The notes under the pieces: model-generated
Told to the model about the DNA's origin: nothing
The model's input: the letters and a program-made list of their open reading frames with translations, nothing else
The model's database searches: none
Part shown: positions 42,628-47,818 of the stretch, piece after piece
Layout: each line of letters begins with the position of its first letter
Numbering within the stretch: the first letter of the stretch is position 1
NCBI RefSeq assembly: GCF_056712565.1
Contig: NZ_CM160072.1
Length of the DNA: 64,000 nt
Direction: 5' to 3' (one strand)
Position numbers and translations under genes: made by a program

Positions 42628-45171
42628 ATGAGCAAAGTCAGACTCGCAATTATCGGTAACGGTATGGTCGGCCATCGCTTTATCGAAGATCTTCTTGATA
42701 AATCTGATGCGGCCAACTTTGATATTACCGTTTTCTGTGAAGAACCGCGCATCGCTTATGACCGCGTACACCTCTCGTCTTACTTCTCTCACCACACCGC
42801 CGAAGAGCTGTCGCTGGTGCGCGAAGGCTTCTACGAGAAACACGGCATCAAAGTTCTGGTCGGCGAACGCGCTATCACCATCAACCGTCAGGAGAAGGTG
42901 ATTCACTCCAGCGCCGGACGTACCGTTTTTTATGACAAGCTGATCATGGCGACCGGTTCCTACCCGTGGATCCCGCCAATTAAAGGTTCTGATACTCAGG
43001 ACTGCTTTGTCTATCGCACCATTGAAGACCTCAACGCCATTGAATCCTGCGCTCGTCGCAGCAAGCGCGGTGCCGTTGTTGGTGGCGGCCTGTTAGGTCT
43101 GGAAGCTGCTGGCGCGCTGAAAAACTTAGGCATTGAAACCCACGTTATCGAATTTGCCCCTATGCTGATGGCGGAACAGCTTGATCAGATGGGCGGCGAG
43201 CAGCTGCGTCGCAAAATCGAAAGTATGGGCGTGCGCGTTCACACCAGCAAAAACACTCTTGAGATTGTGCAGGAAGGTGTTGAAGCGCGTAAAACCATGC
43301 GTTTTGCCGACGGCAGCGAACTGGAAGTCGACTTTATCGTCTTCTCTACCGGTATCCGTCCGCGCGATAAGCTGGCAACCCAGTGTGGTCTGGACGTTGC
43401 TCCGCGTGGGGGTATCGTCATAAATGATTCCTGCCAGACTTCCGATCCGGATATCTACGCCATCGGTGAATGCGCAAGCTGGAACAACCGTGTATTTGGT
43501 CTGGTAGCACCAGGCTACAAAATGGCGCAGGTCGCCGTTGACCATATTCTTGGTAGCGAAAACGCCTTTGAAGGTGCAGACCTTAGCGCCAAGCTGAAAC
43601 TGCTGGGCGTAGACGTAGGCGGTATTGGTGATGCGCACGGTCGCACGCCTGGCGCACGTAGCTACGTTTACCTCGACGAAAGCAAAGAGATCTACAAACG
43701 CCTGATTGTCAGCGAAGACAACAAAACCCTGCTCGGTGCGGTACTGGTGGGCGATACCAGCGACTACGGCAACCTGCTGCAACTGGTGCTGAACGCTATC
43801 GAGCTGCCGGAAAACCCGGATTCCCTGATCCTGCCAGCGCACTCGGGTAGCGGTAAGCCGTCTATCGGTGTTGATAAACTGCCGGACAGCGCGCAAATCT
43901 GCTCCTGCTTCGACGTCACCAAAGGCGACCTGATTGCTGCTATCAACAAAGGCTGCCACACCGTTGCGGCGCTGAAAGCCGAAACCAAAGCCGGTACGGG
44001 CTGCGGCGGTTGTATTCCGCTGGTCACTCAGGTACTGAACGCGGAACTGGCGAAACAGGGTATCGAAGTTAACAACAACCTGTGTGAACACTTTGCTTAT
44101 TCGCGTCAGGAACTGTTCCATTTGATCCGCGTTGAAGGCATTAAAACCTTCGAAGAACTGCTGGCGAAACACGGCAAAGGTTACGGTTGTGAAGTTTGTA
44201 AACCGACCGTCGGTTCGCTGCTGGCCTCCTGCTGGAACGAATACATTCTGAAGCCGGAACATACTCCGCTGCAGGATTCTAACGACAACTTCCTCGCGAA
44301 CATCCAGAAAGACGGCACCTACTCGGTGATCCCGCGTTCTCCGGGCGGTGAAATCACCCCGGAAGGGCTGATGGCAGTGGGTCGTATCGCGCGTGAATTT
44401 AATCTCTACACCAAAATCACCGGCTCTCAGCGCCTGGCGATGTTTGGCGCACAGAAAGACGATCTGCCGGAGATCTGGCGTCAACTGATTGAAGCCGGCT
44501 TCGAAACCGGTCATGCCTATGCGAAAGCACTGCGTATGGCGAAAACCTGCGTGGGAAGCACCTGGTGCCGCTACGGTGTTGGCGACAGCGTCGGCCTCGG
44601 CGTGGAACTGGAAAACCGTTACAAAGGCATCCGTACGCCGCACAAAATGAAGTTCGGTGTCTCCGGCTGTACCCGTGAATGTTCAGAAGCTCAGGGTAAA
44701 GACGTGGGTATTATCGCCACCGAAAAAGGCTGGAACCTGTATGTTTGCGGTAACGGCGGCATGAAACCGCGTCATGCGGATCTGCTGGCAGCGGATATCG
44801 ATCGCGAAACGCTGATTAAATATCTTGACCGCTTCATGATGTTCTACATCCGTACTGCCGACAAACTGACGCGTACCGCGCCGTGGTTAGAAAACCTCGA
44901 AGGTGGCATCGATTACCTGAAAGCGGTGATCATTGACGACAAACTGGGGCTGAACGCACATCTGGAAGAAGAGATGGCGCGCCTGCGTGAAGCGGTAGTG
45001 TGTGAGTGGACTGAAACGGTCAATACCCCGTCTGCGCAGACTCGCTTCAAACACTTCATCAACAGCGATAAGCGTGACCCGAACGTGCAGATGGTGCCAG
45101 AGCGCGAACAGCACCGTCCGGCAACGCCGTATGAACGTATCCCGGTAACTCTGGTGGAGGACAACGCATGA
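42628..45171 (+). CDS. nirB: NADH-dependent nitrite reductase large subunit
   Basis: 847-aa ORF MSKVRLAIIGNGMVGHRFIEDLL... Confidence 0.97.
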   Translation: MSKVRLAIIGNGMVGHRFIEDLLDKSDAANFDITVFCEEPRIAYDRVHLSSYFSHHTAEELSLVREGFYEKHGIKVLVGERAITINRQEKVIHSSAGRTVFYDKLIMATGSYPWIPPIKGSDTQDCFVYRTIEDLNAIESCARRSKRGAVVGGGLLGLEAAGALKNLGIETHVIEFAPMLMAEQLDQMGGEQLRRKIESMGVRVHTSKNTLEIVQEGVEARKTMRFADGSELEVDFIVFSTGIRPRDKLATQCGLDVAPRGGIVINDSCQTSDPDIYAIGECASWNNRVFGLVAPGYKMAQVAVDHILGSENAFEGADLSAKLKLLGVDVGGIGDAHGRTPGARSYVYLDESKEIYKRLIVSEDNKTLLGAVLVGDTSDYGNLLQLVLNAIELPENPDSLILPAHSGSGKPSIGVDKLPDSAQICSCFDVTKGDLIAAINKGCHTVAALKAETKAGTGCGGCIPLVTQVLNAELAKQGIEVNNNLCEHFAYSRQELFHLIRVEGIKTFEELLAKHGKGYGCEVCKPTVGSLLASCWNEYILKPEHTPLQDSNDNFLANIQKDGTYSVIPRSPGGEITPEGLMAVGRIAREFNLYTKITGSQRLAMFGAQKDDLPEIWRQLIEAGFETGHAYAKALRMAKTCVGSTWCRYGVGDSVGLGVELENRYKGIRTPHKMKFGVSGCTRECSEAQGKDVGIIATEKGWNLYVCGNGGMKPRHADLLAADIDRETLIKYLDRFMMFYIRTADKLTRTAPWLENLEGGIDYLKAVIIDDKLGLNAHLEEEMARLREAVVCEWTETVNTPSAQTRFKHFINSDKRDPNVQMVPEREQHRPATPYERIPVTLVEDNA

Positions 45172-45494
45172 GCCAGTGGAAAGACATCTGCAAAATCGAT
45201 GACATCCTGCCTGAAACCGGCGTCTGCGCGCTGTTAGGTGACGAACAAGTAGCAATTTTCCGCCCGTATCACAGCGATCAGGTGTTTGCGATCAGCAACA
45301 TCGACCCGTTCTTCGAGTCCAGCGTGCTGTCACGCGGGTTGATTGCGGAACACCAGGGCGAGCTGTGGGTCGCCAGTCCGCTGAAAAAGCAGCGTTTTCG
45401 CTTAAGCGACGGCTTGTGCATGGAAGACGAACAGTTTTCCGTCAAGCATTACGACGCGCGAGTGAAAGACGGCGTGGTACAGCTGCGCGGTTAA
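45168..45494 (+). CDS. nirD: Nitrite reductase small subunit
   Basis: 108-aa Rieske-like ORF overlapping nirB stop. Confidence 0.95.
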   Translation: MSQWKDICKIDDILPETGVCALLGDEQVAIFRPYHSDQVFAISNIDPFFESSVLSRGLIAEHQGELWVASPLKKQRFRLSDGLCMEDEQFSVKHYDARVKDGVVQLRG

Positions 45495-45504
45495 TATTTT
45501 AACG

Positions 45505-45530
45505 GGAGGCGCAATGCCTCCCCTTTTTGC
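45505..45530 (+). terminator. Hairpin plus T-run after nirD (partial terminator/attenuator before nirC)
   Basis: gggaggc-gcaat-gcctccc followed by ctttttg. Confidence 0.55.
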
Positions 45531-45619
45531 ATGGTCCTGTAATAACCTTCGGTATATTGCAGGACATTTTTTAAACTTTTTGTTTTATTTTTTGTTTTTA
45601 TTTTTTAAAGGATAATCAA

Positions 45620-46426
45620 ATGTTTACAGACACTATTACTAAGTGTGCGGCTAACGCTGCGCGCATTGCACGCCTGTCGGCAAATAACCCGCTCGGCTTT
45701 TGGGTCAGCTCCGCCATGGCGGGCGCGTATGTGGGTCTTGGGATCATCCTGATTTTCACGCTCGGTAATTTGCTCGACCCGTCCGTACGTCCTCTGGTGA
45801 TGGGCGCGACCTTTGGTATCGCCTTAACGCTGGTCATTATTGCTGGTTCTGAACTGTTCACCGGACACACCATGTTCCTCACCTTTGGGGTGAAAGCGGG
45901 CACTATCAGCCACGGGCAAATGTGGGCAATCCTGCCGCAAACCTGGCTGGGTAACCTGGTCGGTTCCGTCTTCGTTGCCATGCTTTATAGCTGGGGCGGC
46001 GGTAGCCTGCTGCCGGTCGATACCAGCATCGTTCACTCCGTTGCGCTGGCTAAAACCACTGCACCGGCAATGGTACTGTTCTTCAAAGGTGCATTGTGTA
46101 ACTGGCTGGTTTGCCTGGCTATCTGGATGGCATTGCGTACAGAAGGGGCGGCGAAATTTATCGCTATCTGGTGGTGTCTGCTGGCATTTATCGCGTCCGG
46201 CTACGAGCACTCCATCGCTAACATGACGCTGTTCGCCCTCTCCTGGTTCGGCAACCACAGCGAAGCCTACACGCTGGCGGGTATTGGTCATAACCTGCTG
46301 TGGGTGACGCTGGGTAATACTTTATCAGGTGCCGTATTCATGGGATTGGGTTATTGGTATGCTACGCCGAAAGCGAATCGTCCGGTTGCGGACAAATTTA
46401 ATCAAACTGAAACGGCTGCCGGTTAA
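45620..46426 (+). CDS. nirC: Nitrite transporter NirC (formate/nitrite transporter family)
   Basis: 268-aa membrane ORF. Confidence 0.95.
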   Translation: MFTDTITKCAANAARIARLSANNPLGFWVSSAMAGAYVGLGIILIFTLGNLLDPSVRPLVMGATFGIALTLVIIAGSELFTGHTMFLTFGVKAGTISHGQMWAILPQTWLGNLVGSVFVAMLYSWGGGSLLPVDTSIVHSVALAKTTAPAMVLFFKGALCNWLVCLAIWMALRTEGAAKFIAIWWCLLAFIASGYEHSIANMTLFALSWFGNHSEAYTLAGIGHNLLWVTLGNTLSGAVFMGLGYWYATPKANRPVADKFNQTETAAG

Positions 46427-46444
46427 TTACTAAGGGGTTTTTAC

Positions 46445-47818
46445 GTGGATCATTTGCCTATATTTTGCCAATTACGCGATCGCGACTGTCTGATTGTCGG
46501 CGGTGGTGATGTCGCGGAACGCAAAGCAAGGTTGCTGTTAGACGCAGGCGCTCGCTTAACGGTGAATGCATTAGCGTTTATTCCACAGTTCACCGCATGG
46601 GCAGATGCAGGCATGTTAACCCTCGTCGAAGGGCCATTTGATGAAAGCCTTCTCGACACCTGCTGGCTGGCGATTGCAGCGACAGATGATGACGCGCTTA
46701 ACCAGCGCGTCAGCGAAGCCGCTGAATCTCGTCGTATCTTCTGTAACGTGGTCGATGCGCCGAAAGCCGCCAGCTTTATTATGCCGTCGATTATTGACCG
46801 CTCACCGCTCATGGTAGCGGTATCCTCTGGCGGTACTTCTCCGGTTCTGGCGCGCCTGTTGCGCGAAAAACTCGAATCACTGCTGCCGTTACATCTGGGC
46901 CAGGTAGCGAAATACGCCGGGCAATTACGCGGGCGAGTAAAACAGCAGTTCGCCACGATGGGTGAGCGTCGCCGTTTCTGGGAGAAATTGTTCGTTAACG
47001 ACCGCCTGGCGCAGTCGCTGGCCAACAACGATCAGAAAGCCATTACTGAAACCACCGAACAGTTAATCAATGAACCGCTCGACCATCGCGGTGAAGTGGT
47101 GCTGGTTGGTGCAGGTCCGGGCGATGCCGGGCTGCTGACACTGAAAGGTCTGCAACAAATTCAGCAGGCAGATGTGGTGGTCTACGACCGTCTGGTTTCT
47201 GACGATATTATGAATCTGATACGCCGCGATGCTGATCGCGTTTTCGTCGGCAAACGCGCGGGATACCACTGCGTACCGCAGGAAGAGATTAACCAGATCT
47301 TGCTGCGGGAAGCGCAAAAAGGTAAACGCGTGGTGCGTCTGAAAGGCGGCGATCCGTTTATTTTCGGGCGTGGCGGAGAAGAGCTGGAAACACTGTGCAA
47401 CGCGGGTATTCCGTTCTCGGTGGTTCCGGGTATTACCGCAGCTTCTGGTTGCTCTGCCTATTCGGGTATTCCGCTCACGCATCGCGATTATGCCCAGAGC
47501 GTACGCTTAATTACCGGACACTTAAAAACCGGTGGCGAGCTGGACTGGGAAAACCTGGCGGCAGAAAAACAGACGCTGGTGTTCTATATGGGGCTGAATC
47601 AGGCTGCAACTATTCAGCAAAAGCTGATTGAATACGGTATGCCTGGTGAAATGCCGGTGGCAATTGTCGAAAACGGAACGGCAGTCACGCAGCGCGTGAT
47701 TGACGGTACGCTCACGCAGCTGGGCGAACTGGCGCAGCAAATGAACAGTCCATCGCTAATTATTATTGGTCGGGTTGTTGGCCTGCGCGATAAATTGAAC
47801 TGGTTCTCTAACCATTAA
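46445..47818 (+). CDS. cysG: Siroheme synthase (uroporphyrinogen-III methyltransferase / precorrin-2 dehydrogenase / ferrochelatase)
   Basis: 457-aa ORF with N-terminal NAD-binding domain and C-terminal methyltransferase domain. Confidence 0.97.

What the first reader, a model, noticed from the sequence alone, without database searches (positions are those of the whole stretch)
45576..45610. Reiterated T-rich motif between nirD and nirC
After the nirD hairpin, the sequence tttttgttttattttttgtttttattttttaaagg repeats a ttttgtttt(t)a unit directly before the nirC ribosome-binding site. This could modulate termination or readthrough into nirC-cysG, or simply be a slippage-prone tract.
Basis: seen in the sequence. 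Interest (0 to 1): 0.2.

Follow-up and report, generated by a model that had tools for sequence, protein, structure and literature searches.

The report
Slippage-prone U-rich leader before nirC
The T-rich repeat between nirD and nirC of E. coli is real and changes length between strains by slippage, but it is an ordinary feature: the end of a conserved U-rich linker joining the nirD terminator to the nirC ribosome-binding site, which the small RNA NarS targets.

Summary
The window is E. coli chromosome and carries nirB-nirD-nirC-cysG. The tract lies at 45577-45606, one base off the given coordinates. It reads TTTTTG TTTTA TTTTTTG TTTTTA TTTTTT, 26 of 30 bases T, the most T-rich 30-mer in the window.

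It ends at the nirC Shine-Dalgarno (45608-45612) and starts 11 nt after a second, Escherichia-specific hairpin. It is 55 nt past the conserved nirD terminator hairpin, so it is not that terminator's U-tract.

Length polymorphism is confirmed in 5,427 E. coli records:
- 63% carry this allele and 26.5% a +1 (T7) allele.
- About 10% carry other alleles, from -12 to +36 nt, including a stepwise (TTTTTA)n series.
- T7 is almost confined to one flanking haplotype, so change is slow.

T-richness with T far above A upstream of the nirC SD holds in 55 of 71 related species, although the sequence does not align.

The tract abuts a 20-bp complement to NarS. Published data show strong, partly Rho-dependent polarity at this junction in K-12. 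In Salmonella, a deletion removing the nirD terminator hairpin together with its U-track impairs NarS control.

Best reading: a U-rich leader used as a platform for Hfq, RNase E or ribosomes, tolerant of length change. Low interest.

The parts
45168..45494 (+). nirD coding sequence (108 aa); overlaps the end of nirB by 4 nt
   Evidence: ORF list; RefSeq annotation of matching E. coli records
45504..45528 (+). Hairpin 1, the nirD intrinsic-terminator-like stem-loop GGGAGGC-GCAAU-GCCUCCC (45504-45522), plus its U-run CUUUUU (to 45528)
   Evidence: Terminator scan. Fold -14.7 kcal/mol, z -3.6. Conserved across genera, with compensatory changes at 3 of 7 pairs. Corresponds to the Salmonella intra-operonic terminator, -14.9 kcal/mol, in PMC7038943.
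45534..45572 (+). Hairpin 2 (45534-45565, 14 pairs with one bulge) followed by AUUUUUU (to 45572). It is an Escherichia-specific insertion into the ancestral T-rich linker and looks like a second terminator.
   Evidence: Fold -17.5 kcal/mol, z -5.8, 0 of 200 shuffles as stable. Absent from Salmonella, Citrobacter, Klebsiella and Enterobacter spacers. Not reported by the simple terminator scan, probably because its stem has a bulge.
45577..45606 (+). The reiterated T-rich tract TTTTTG TTTTA TTTTTTG TTTTTA TTTTTT: an imperfect (T4-6 R)n microsatellite in DNA and a U-rich nirC leader in RNA
   Evidence: sequence, repeat, rarity; alleles; T-richness with T above A across species
45606..45625 (+). 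NarS sRNA target: 20 contiguous pairs (15 Watson-Crick at 45607-45621, extended with two G-U pairs). It covers the Shine-Dalgarno AAGGA (45608-45612) and the nirC AUG (45620-45622).
   Evidence: K-12 narS (b4813) fetched. Complementarity read directly and by RNAduplex, -28.1 kcal/mol. NarS-nirC pairing was shown experimentally in Salmonella and, according to Wang et al., is supported by E. coli RIL-seq data (PMC7038943).
45620..46426 (+). nirC coding sequence (268 aa, nitrite transporter)
45514..45615 (+). 33-codon ORF (the historical 'nirE'), MPPLFAWSCNNLRYIAGHFLNFLFYFLFLFFKG, which reads through the tract; judged spurious
   Evidence: Natural 1- and 2-nt indels break or shift the frame, including the T7 allele in 26.5% of records. 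Its ATG lies in the loop of hairpin 1 and is ACG in Salmonella, Citrobacter and some Klebsiella.
45648..45648 (+). Peak coordinate of a published Rho-termination region (K-12 3,497,031), 28 nt into nirC. Resolution is coarse because scores use 800-nt windows.
   Evidence: Adams et al. 2021, eLife, supplementary file 2. Mapped with the offset window = NC_000913.3 minus 3,451,383, taken.

Best explanation
The tract is the Shine-Dalgarno-proximal part of a conserved U-rich linker. The linker joins the intrinsic terminator after nirD to the nirC ribosome-binding site in the nirBDC-cysG mRNA. In DNA the tract is an imperfect (T4-6 R)n microsatellite that gains and loses 1-nt, 6-nt and 12-14-nt blocks by replication slippage. 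In RNA it is a U-rich segment with at most weak structure, lying between hairpin 2 and the SD/NarS site. Its most likely job is to be a single-stranded U-rich platform. Three uses are plausible: a binding site for Hfq that helps NarS anneal to the adjacent SD, an entry and cleavage region for RNase E that separates nirBD from nirC-cysG, and a landing site for S1/30S so that nirC, which is not translationally coupled to nirD, can initiate on its own. Composition and strand matter; exact sequence and length do not. It is not the U-tract of either terminator hairpin. Shown here: the sequence, rarity, repeat structure and allelic series; T-richness with T above A across species; abutment to a 20-bp NarS complement; the two hairpins. 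Taken from the literature: the Salmonella data on the hairpin-plus-U-track deletion, RNase E and 5' ends, and the K-12 polarity data. Inferred: that the E. coli tract does what the Salmonella U-track is proposed to do, and which protein binds it.
For: 1. The tract is an extreme outlier. It has 26 of 30 T. The 40 nt at -52..-13 of nirC hold 31 T, against a mean of 10.9 (sd 4.7) for 61 crudely called genes in the window.
2. The composition is conserved although the sequence is not alignable. In 55 of 71 related species this 40-nt region has at least 19 T, with median T 22 and A 8, and T exceeds A in 61 of 71. Such strand asymmetry points to an RNA-level or otherwise strand-specific role rather than plain AT-richness.
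3. Alignment shows a conserved hairpin 1, then a T-rich linker, then the conserved AGGATAATCAA block. E. coli hairpin 2 is an insertion into that linker.
4. The tract abuts a 20-bp NarS duplex of -28.1 kcal/mol.
5. In Salmonella (PMC7038943), nirC 5' ends map in the uridine-rich region, and the nirC-cysG species depends on RNase E. Deleting the terminator together with its U-track cut NarS repression from about 30-fold to about 5-fold. The authors propose that the uridines bind Hfq.
6. The stretch 45566-45606 holds 6 matches to the RNase E consensus RN|WUU, about 7 times the window density.
7. All 17 sampled E. coli alleles keep the T-rich character and the SD/NarS block; the flanks are near-invariant (ws5-3 and AR_0017 differ by one A next to the SD). 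The tract itself varies from -12 to +36 nt, which fits a composition-dependent element.
8. In a Salmonella enterica variant with a REP insertion, a T-rich run again sits directly before the SD.
Against: No experiment addresses this tract in E. coli. The Salmonella deletion removed hairpin and U-track together, so their roles are not separated. Wang et al. saw no Hfq-CLIP peak in the spacer, though the cells were grown aerobically. In 10 of 71 species, and in one Salmonella enterica variant, an ERIC element separates the T-rich linker from the SD. That leaves a purine-rich sequence before the SD, so adjacency of U-rich RNA to the SD is dispensable. Hfq's usual mRNA motif, (ARN)n, is absent from the tract. 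T-richness could partly be a by-product of terminator U-runs plus self-propagating slippage. Folding predicts that the tract pairs weakly with the SD rather than staying fully single-stranded. The RNase E motif enrichment follows almost automatically from the U-rich composition.
Confidence: 0.5

Rival explanations
1. Neutral spacer. The tract has no function of its own. It is T-rich because it descends from terminator U-runs in an AT-rich untranslated spacer, and because low-complexity T-runs expand by slippage once seeded.
For: Many length alleles are tolerated, from -12 to +36 nt. ERIC insertions replace it next to the SD in 10 of 71 species. There is no sequence-level conservation. The expansion series starts after a G-to-A change that created perfect TTTTTA units, a classic loss of a repeat interruption.
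Against: T exceeds A by about 3 to 1 in this position across many genera with spacers of very different length and content. The tract is never lost in E. coli; the shortest allele sampled still has 18 nt of T-rich tract. Deleting the homologous Salmonella hairpin plus U-track has phenotypes.
Confidence: 0.28
2. Weak anti-Shine-Dalgarno. The U-run pairs through A-U and G-U pairs with the purine-rich UAAAGGAUAA, throttling nirC translation until the structure is opened.
For: The minimum-free-energy and ensemble folds pair 45585-45594 with 45606-45615. The predicted probability that AAAGGA is unpaired is 0.01 in this allele, against 0.26-0.36 in the -11 and -12 alleles.
Against: The local structure is only -5 to -8 kcal/mol and no better than shuffles: z -1.6 to -1.7, with 15 of 200 shuffles as stable. 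Any U-rich run will be predicted to pair with a purine-rich SD. No covariation test is possible in low-complexity sequence. Species with an ERIC insertion lack this pairing.
Confidence: 0.12
3. Termination or readthrough modulator. The tract tunes how many polymerases pass from nirD into nirC-cysG.
For: The junction is a strong polarity point. K-12 DirectRNA-seq gives 586 reads upstream and 24 downstream without bicyclomycin, and 920 and 149 with it. Two terminator-like hairpins lie just upstream. In Salmonella, deleting the hairpin plus U-track reduced nirBD transcripts and raised nirC-cysG transcripts.
Against: The geometry is wrong. The tract begins 11 nt after hairpin 2 and 55 nt after hairpin 1, and each hairpin has its own U-run outside the finding's interval. 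The tract is C-poor, which by established knowledge of Rho loading sites makes it a poor one. The Term-seq tables I searched list no discrete 3' end in the junction under the authors' growth conditions.
Confidence: 0.08
4. DNA-level element: curved DNA, a nucleoid-protein site, or a promoter or UP element for nirC or for an antisense transcript.
For: A/T-tracts can bend DNA. A Rho-terminated antisense transcript crosses this region in K-12: peak at 3,496,855 on the minus strand, 262 reads upstream and 12 downstream.
Against: No sigma-70-like promoter was found on either strand in 45100-46500. T-runs recur every 5-8 nt rather than every 10-11 nt, so bends would not add up in phase. The strand asymmetry across genera argues for an RNA-level role. 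In Salmonella no primary 5' end was reported for nirC; the mapped 5' ends look like processing products.
Confidence: 0.04
5. Coding sequence. The tract encodes the Phe/Leu-rich C-terminus of a 33-aa peptide ('nirE') whose stop lies 4 nt before the nirC AUG, coupling nirC translation to it.
For: The ORF 45514-45615 exists. It has a GGAGG 4 nt before its ATG and ends 4 nt before the nirC ATG.
Against: The T7 allele, in 26.5% of records, along with T8 and other 1-nt indels, shifts or truncates the frame. The ATG and its SD are locked in hairpin 1. The ATG is ACG in Salmonella, Citrobacter and some Klebsiella. As I recall it (paper not held), Harborne et al. 1992 found no translation of nirE.
Confidence: 0.02

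Closest known systems
Uridine-rich region after the intra-operonic nirD terminator of Salmonella nirBDC-cysG (Wang et al. 2020, Nucleic Acids Res, PMC7038943)
   Same: It lies in the same spacer of the same operon and has the homologous hairpin 1, followed by a T-rich linker that leads to the conserved AGGATAATCAA block targeted by NarS. It is proposed there as an Hfq site and holds the RNase E-dependent 5' ends of nirC-cysG.
   Different: In E. coli an extra hairpin splits the linker, and the reiterated tract sits directly against the SD. In Salmonella enterica subsp. enterica a REP or ERIC insertion of about 100-120 nt lies between the U-track and the SD, giving spacers of 182-194 nt against 125 nt here. 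The E. coli tract itself has not been tested.
U-rich or AU-rich S1-dependent translational enhancers and ribosome standby sites (for example the U-rich element of rnd mRNA, the manY enhancer silenced by SgrS, and the tisB standby site); cited from my own knowledge
   Same: A U-rich, weakly structured segment within about 40 nt upstream of an SD, next to a stable hairpin, on a cistron that must initiate independently.
   Different: There are no binding or activity data here. Folding predicts weak pairing with the SD rather than a free strand.
Bacterial simple-sequence repeats, VNTRs and contingency loci
   Same: Head-to-tail short units with copy-number alleles differing by whole units, and an expansion series after loss of an interrupting base.
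   Different: The tract is not in a coding frame or a promoter spacer, so it offers no obvious ON/OFF switch. The common T6 and T7 alleles track flanking haplotypes (T7 on other haplotypes in only 1 and 3 records), so mutation is slow.
U-tract of intrinsic (Rho-independent) terminators
   Same: A U-rich run downstream of GC-rich hairpins at the end of nirD.
   Different: Terminator U-tracts directly follow the stem. This tract is 11 and 55 nt away, and each hairpin has its own U-run.

Membership tests
Simple-sequence repeat / VNTR changing by slippage | Tandem head-to-tail short units | tested here: met
   TRF finds period 6 (4.8 copies) and period 13 (2.4 copies, 94% matches, score 53).
Simple-sequence repeat / VNTR changing by slippage | Copy-number alleles among strains that differ by whole units | tested here: met
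   Alleles of -12, -11, +1, +2, +6, +7, +12 (two kinds), +15, +18, +24, +30 and +36 nt were seen. The (TTTTTA)n series runs stepwise on one haplotype. 63% of records carry the window allele and 26.5% the T7 allele.
Phase-variable contingency locus | Repeat placed in an ORF or between -35 and -10 so that unit changes switch expression | tested here: not met
   The tract lies in an untranslated spacer upstream of the SD. No promoter was found on either strand, and the overlapping 'nirE' ORF is not conserved.
Phase-variable contingency locus | High mutation rate, so that alleles scatter within clones | tested here: not met
   T7 is almost confined to the AATGAC haplotype, with only 1 and 3 records on the other two haplotypes. 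The hexamer series does vary within one haplotype but is rare: 72 of 5,427 records are below 95% identity to the window allele.
Intrinsic terminator U-tract | U-run starting within about 2 nt of the 3' end of a GC-rich stem | tested here: not met
   The tract starts 11 nt after hairpin 2 and 55 nt after hairpin 1. The hairpins' own U-runs are 45524-45528 and 45567-45572.
Hfq-binding site of an sRNA-regulated mRNA | Lies close to the sRNA pairing site | tested here: met
   The tract ends at 45606, which is the first base of the 20-bp NarS duplex.
Hfq-binding site of an sRNA-regulated mRNA | Hfq-binding motif: (ARN)n for the distal face, or U-rich / UA-rich for the proximal face or rim | tested here: inconclusive
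   There is no ARN repeat, but the tract is U-rich with UA steps. Which face, if any, would bind cannot be decided from sequence.
Hfq-binding site of an sRNA-regulated mRNA | Physical Hfq binding (CLIP or gel shift) | not testable with these tools
   Wang et al. report no Hfq-CLIP peak in the Salmonella spacer under aerobic growth, when the operon is barely expressed.
RNase E cleavage region | Single-stranded AU-rich RNA with RN|WUU consensus sites | tested here: met
   Six consensus matches in 45566-45606, a density of 0.13 per nt against 0.019 per nt in the window. The enrichment follows from the composition.
RNase E cleavage region | Mapped RNase E-dependent 5' ends | not testable with these tools
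   Shown for the Salmonella U-rich region only.
S1-dependent U-rich translational enhancer / standby site | U-rich unstructured segment just upstream of the SD | tested here: inconclusive
   The composition fits, but folding predicts weak pairing with the SD, with z not significant.
Small protein gene ('nirE') | Start codon and reading frame conserved among strains and relatives | tested here: not met
   The frame is broken by T7, T8 and other indels. The ATG is replaced by ACG in other genera.
sroE RNA (Rfam RF00371) | Covariance-model score at or above the gathering threshold (51 bits) | tested here: not met
   24.3 bits at 45494-45573, covering the two hairpins upstream and not the tract.
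Phased A-tract curved DNA | A/T-tracts repeated in phase with the helix (about 10-11 bp) | tested here: not met
   T-runs recur every 5-8 bp.

The most novel reading that the evidence does not exclude
The copy number of the (T4-6 R)n units acts as a heritable rheostat. By changing the length of U-rich RNA between hairpin 2 and the SD (18 to 66 nt of tract in the sampled alleles), it would set basal NirC translation and the strength of NarS/Hfq repression. Gut E. coli lineages, such as the NC101-like lineage with expanded TTTTTA arrays, would then differ heritably in nitrite import.
Probability: 0.1. Interest if true: 0.45.

Novelty: new member of a known kind. Interest (0 to 1): 0.18.

Why it matters
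The stakes are modest. The nirD-nirC junction is where E. coli and Salmonella uncouple the nitrite importer NirC from nitrite reductase NirBD. How the U-rich region enables NarS control was left open by Wang et al. (2020).

The natural E. coli allelic series, with U-tract changes from -12 to +36 nt placed directly against the NarS site, is a ready-made set of variants for testing three things:
- whether U-rich RNA recruits Hfq;
- whether it recruits RNase E;
- whether it serves as a ribosome landing site.

The hexamer array could also serve as a minor typing marker. Otherwise this is an ordinary low-complexity leader.

Tried and rejected
- **Terminator U-tract:** rejected on geometry.
- **'nirE' small ORF:** rejected because natural frameshift alleles break the frame and the ATG is absent in other genera.
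- **Known RNA family:** the Rfam scan gave only sub-threshold hits. The best was sroE at 24.3 bits against a threshold of 51, on the hairpins and not the tract.
- **Promoter on either strand:** none found in 45100-46500.
- **Fast contingency switch:** rejected because T7 is nearly confined to one haplotype.
- **Significant anti-SD structure:** the folding z-score is only -1.6 to -1.7, so it is kept as a low-confidence rival.
- **Literature that led nowhere:**
  - Harborne et al. 1992 is not held.
  - No supplementary files are held for Wang et al..
  - The search for 'nirE' found nothing relevant.
  - The search combining VNTR/MLVA terms with nirC or nirD was badly specified, and none of the 12 papers it listed contained nirC or nirD.
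  - A bioRxiv paper on the phage sRNA HnrS mentions nir genes only as indirect targets.
- **Term-seq tables of Adams et al.:** they list no discrete 3' end in the junction.
- **First NarS duplex attempt:** RNAduplex with the full 184-nt NarS gave an uninformative long pairing. Repeating it with the 3' 75 nt gave the clean duplex.

Full report
**Where we are.** The window is E. coli chromosome. A 241-nt stretch around the finding is 100% identical to strain FDAARGOS_536 and is present in 5,425 of 5,426 complete E. coli genomes, annotated there as nirD and nirC. The gene order is nirB 42628-45171, nirD 45168-45494, nirC 45620-46426 and cysG 46445-47818. The nirD-nirC spacer is 125 nt.

**Checking the observation.**
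- The quoted string is present but starts at 45577, not 45576.
- Its T-rich core, 45577-45606, reads TTTTTG TTTTA TTTTTTG TTTTTA TTTTTT, with 26 T of 30.
- No other 30-mer in the 64-kb window exceeds 19 T.
- Tandem Repeats Finder reports period 13 (2.4 copies, 94% matches, score 53) and period 6.
- The tract runs into AAAGGA, the nirC Shine-Dalgarno (45608-45612), seven bases before the ATG at 45620.
- There are two hairpins after nirD, not one. Hairpin 1 (45504-45522, -14.7 kcal/mol) is followed by CUUUUU. Hairpin 2 (45534-45565, -17.5 kcal/mol, z -5.8) is followed by AUUUUUU.
- The tract begins 11 nt after hairpin 2.

I searched all E. coli genome records with an 88-nt query spanning the tract and its invariant flanks.
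- 3,433 of 5,427 records (63%) are at least 99% identical. At this query length that means an exact match over the aligned part; a few of these alignments are trimmed by one or two bases at an end.
- The allele with one extra T in the third run (T7) is matched in the same way in 1,440 records (26.5%).
- About 10% carry something else.
- Fetching 16 further examples gave spacers of 113 to 161 nt. The alleles include:
  - deletion of one TTTTA-TTTTTTG block (-12);
  - duplications of 12-14 nt blocks;
  - T8;
  - a stepwise series with three to seven extra TTTTTA units (+12, +18, +24, +30, +36).
- The stepwise series sits on one flanking haplotype, in which the interrupting G had first changed to A.
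- So the repeat is a real slippage unit.
- Change is slow, however. T7 sits almost only on one hairpin-2 haplotype (AATGAC). That haplotype also carries T6 in 169 records. T7 occurs on the other two haplotypes in only 1 and 3 records.
- This is a stable polymorphism with a rare expansion lineage, not a fast phase-variation switch.

**What the region is in relatives.** I took 80 loci from other species that encode close NirC relatives.
- Hairpin 1, directly after the nirD stop, is conserved across genera. Three of its seven pairs show compensatory changes.
- In short spacers (S. enterica subsp. diarizonae 81 nt, Klebsiella 67 nt, Enterobacter 72 nt) hairpin 1 is followed by a T-rich linker. The linker runs to a conserved AGGATAATCAA block before the ATG.
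- E. coli hairpin 2 is an Escherichia-specific insertion into this linker. REP elements occupy the same place in Citrobacter and in one S. enterica variant. In both, a T-rich run again lies directly before the SD.
- In 10 of 71 species, and in another S. enterica variant, an ERIC element sits between the linker and the SD.
- Leaving those aside, the 40 nt at -52..-13 of nirC are T-rich almost everywhere: at least 19 T in 55 of 71 species, with median T 22 against A 8.
- In the window, the same measure over 61 crudely called genes has mean 10.9 (sd 4.7), and nirC is the top value at 31.
- The sequence is not alignable, but the composition and its strand bias are kept.

**Link to NarS.**
- K-12 annotates the sRNA narS (b4813) at the 3' end of narK.
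- It contains ATTTGATTATCCTTT, a perfect 15-nt complement of 45607-45621. With two G-U pairs the duplex extends to 20 contiguous pairs (45606-45625, -28.1 kcal/mol).
- The last bases of the finding's interval are therefore the NarS target and the SD, and the T-tract abuts it.
- Wang et al. (2020, PMC7038943) reported for Salmonella:
  - NarS with Hfq represses nirC selectively within nirBDC-cysG.
  - nirC 5' ends map in the uridine-rich region after nirD.
  - The nirC-cysG species depends on RNase E.
  - Deleting the nirD terminator together with its U-track lowers nirBD transcripts, raises nirC-cysG transcripts, and cuts NarS repression from about 30-fold to about 5-fold.
  - The authors suggest that the uridines bind Hfq.
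- The 182-194 nt spacers I found in S. enterica subsp. enterica fit their statement that the NarS site lies about 200 nt from the U-track.

**Readthrough in E. coli.**
- Adams et al. (2021, eLife, supplementary file 2) list a Rho-termination region peaking at K-12 3,497,031 (+). That is window 45648, 28 nt into nirC.
- Coverage in the 800-nt windows is 586 reads upstream and 24 downstream without bicyclomycin, and 920 and 149 with it.
- The junction is thus a strong polarity point with both a Rho-dependent and a Rho-independent part.
- Their tables list no discrete Term-seq 3' end in the junction.
- None of this singles out the tract. The terminators' own U-runs (45524-45528, 45567-45572) lie outside it.

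**Other readings tested.**
- *The 'nirE' ORF.* A 33-codon ORF (45514-45615) reads through the tract and stops 4 nt before the nirC ATG. Its frame is broken or shifted by the T7 and T8 alleles and by indels in the hairpins. Its ATG lies in the loop of hairpin 1 and is ACG in other genera. I consider it spurious.
- *Anti-SD pairing.* Folding pairs the first half of the tract with the purine-rich SD. The predicted probability that the SD is unpaired is 0.01 here and 0.26-0.36 in the short alleles. The structure is only -5 to -8 kcal/mol and no better than shuffles.
- *Promoters and RNA families.* No promoter-like site was found on either strand, and no Rfam family reaches threshold.

**Verdict.**
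- The 'terminator modulator' reading does not fit the geometry.
- The best-supported account is that the tract is the SD-proximal part of a conserved U-rich linker in the nirC leader. It would serve as a composition-dependent, length-tolerant single-stranded platform for Hfq and NarS, RNase E, or ribosome loading.
- Which protein uses it is inferred, not shown.
- A purely neutral spacer remains a serious rival.
- The feature is of a known kind and of low interest. Its one useful aspect is the natural allelic series next to a characterised sRNA target.

Noticed in passing
window 45534-45572: A second strong hairpin (-17.5 kcal/mol, z -5.8, loop region CCUUCGG) followed by AUUUUUU. It is Escherichia-specific. 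E. albertii and related clades carry a variant stem (GATCCTGCA...TGCAGGATC) with a different loop. The simple terminator scan missed it, probably because its stem has a bulge. It may be a second terminator or an RNA-stabilising element.
   Followed up: partly
window 45494-45573: Weak Rfam match to sroE, an sRNA family (24.3 bits against a threshold of 51; E about 1e-3 in a small search). Both have two hairpins with the second followed by U-runs. This raises the untested idea that the nirD 3' UTR yields a stable small RNA ending at hairpin 2.
   Followed up: partly
window about 45472, minus strand (K-12 3,496,855): Adams et al. 2021 list a Rho-termination region for an antisense transcript that crosses the nirC 5' end and the spacer and stops near the nirD stop codon (262 reads upstream and 12 downstream; 405 and 66 with bicyclomycin). 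I found no consensus promoter for it in 45560-46500.
   Followed up: partly
L016, L018, L021, L026, L046, L057, L064, L071, L073, L108; L013-L015, L017, L106; L067: The nirD-nirC spacer is a hotspot for repeat-element insertion. ERIC copies sit just before the SD in several Citrobacter, Klebsiella, Phytobacter and Pseudescherichia species and in one Salmonella variant. REP/BIME-like elements occur in other Citrobacter and Salmonella. One uncultured Enterobacteriaceae genome (L067) has a 432-nt array of CCCTCTCCC...GGGAGAGGG palindromes.
   Followed up: partly
L003 (strain CE0026f), spacer allele T8: With two extra T, the 'nirE' ATG in hairpin 1 comes into frame with nirC. If that ATG were ever used, the result would be an N-terminally extended NirC.
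   Followed up: no
L004 (strain IMT16316): RefSeq annotates nirC as a frameshifted pseudogene in this wild-bird isolate. The same strain has lost one C in the loop of hairpin 2 and carries a G-to-A change next to the 5' arm of hairpin 1.
   Followed up: no
window 45168-45171: nirB and nirD overlap by 4 nt, which fits translational coupling. nirC, in contrast, stands 125 nt away from nirD and must initiate independently.
   Followed up: no
E. coli genome collection: Three matches to the nirD-nirC junction lie on records labelled as plasmids, and one of the 5,426 genomes has no match at all.
   Followed up: no
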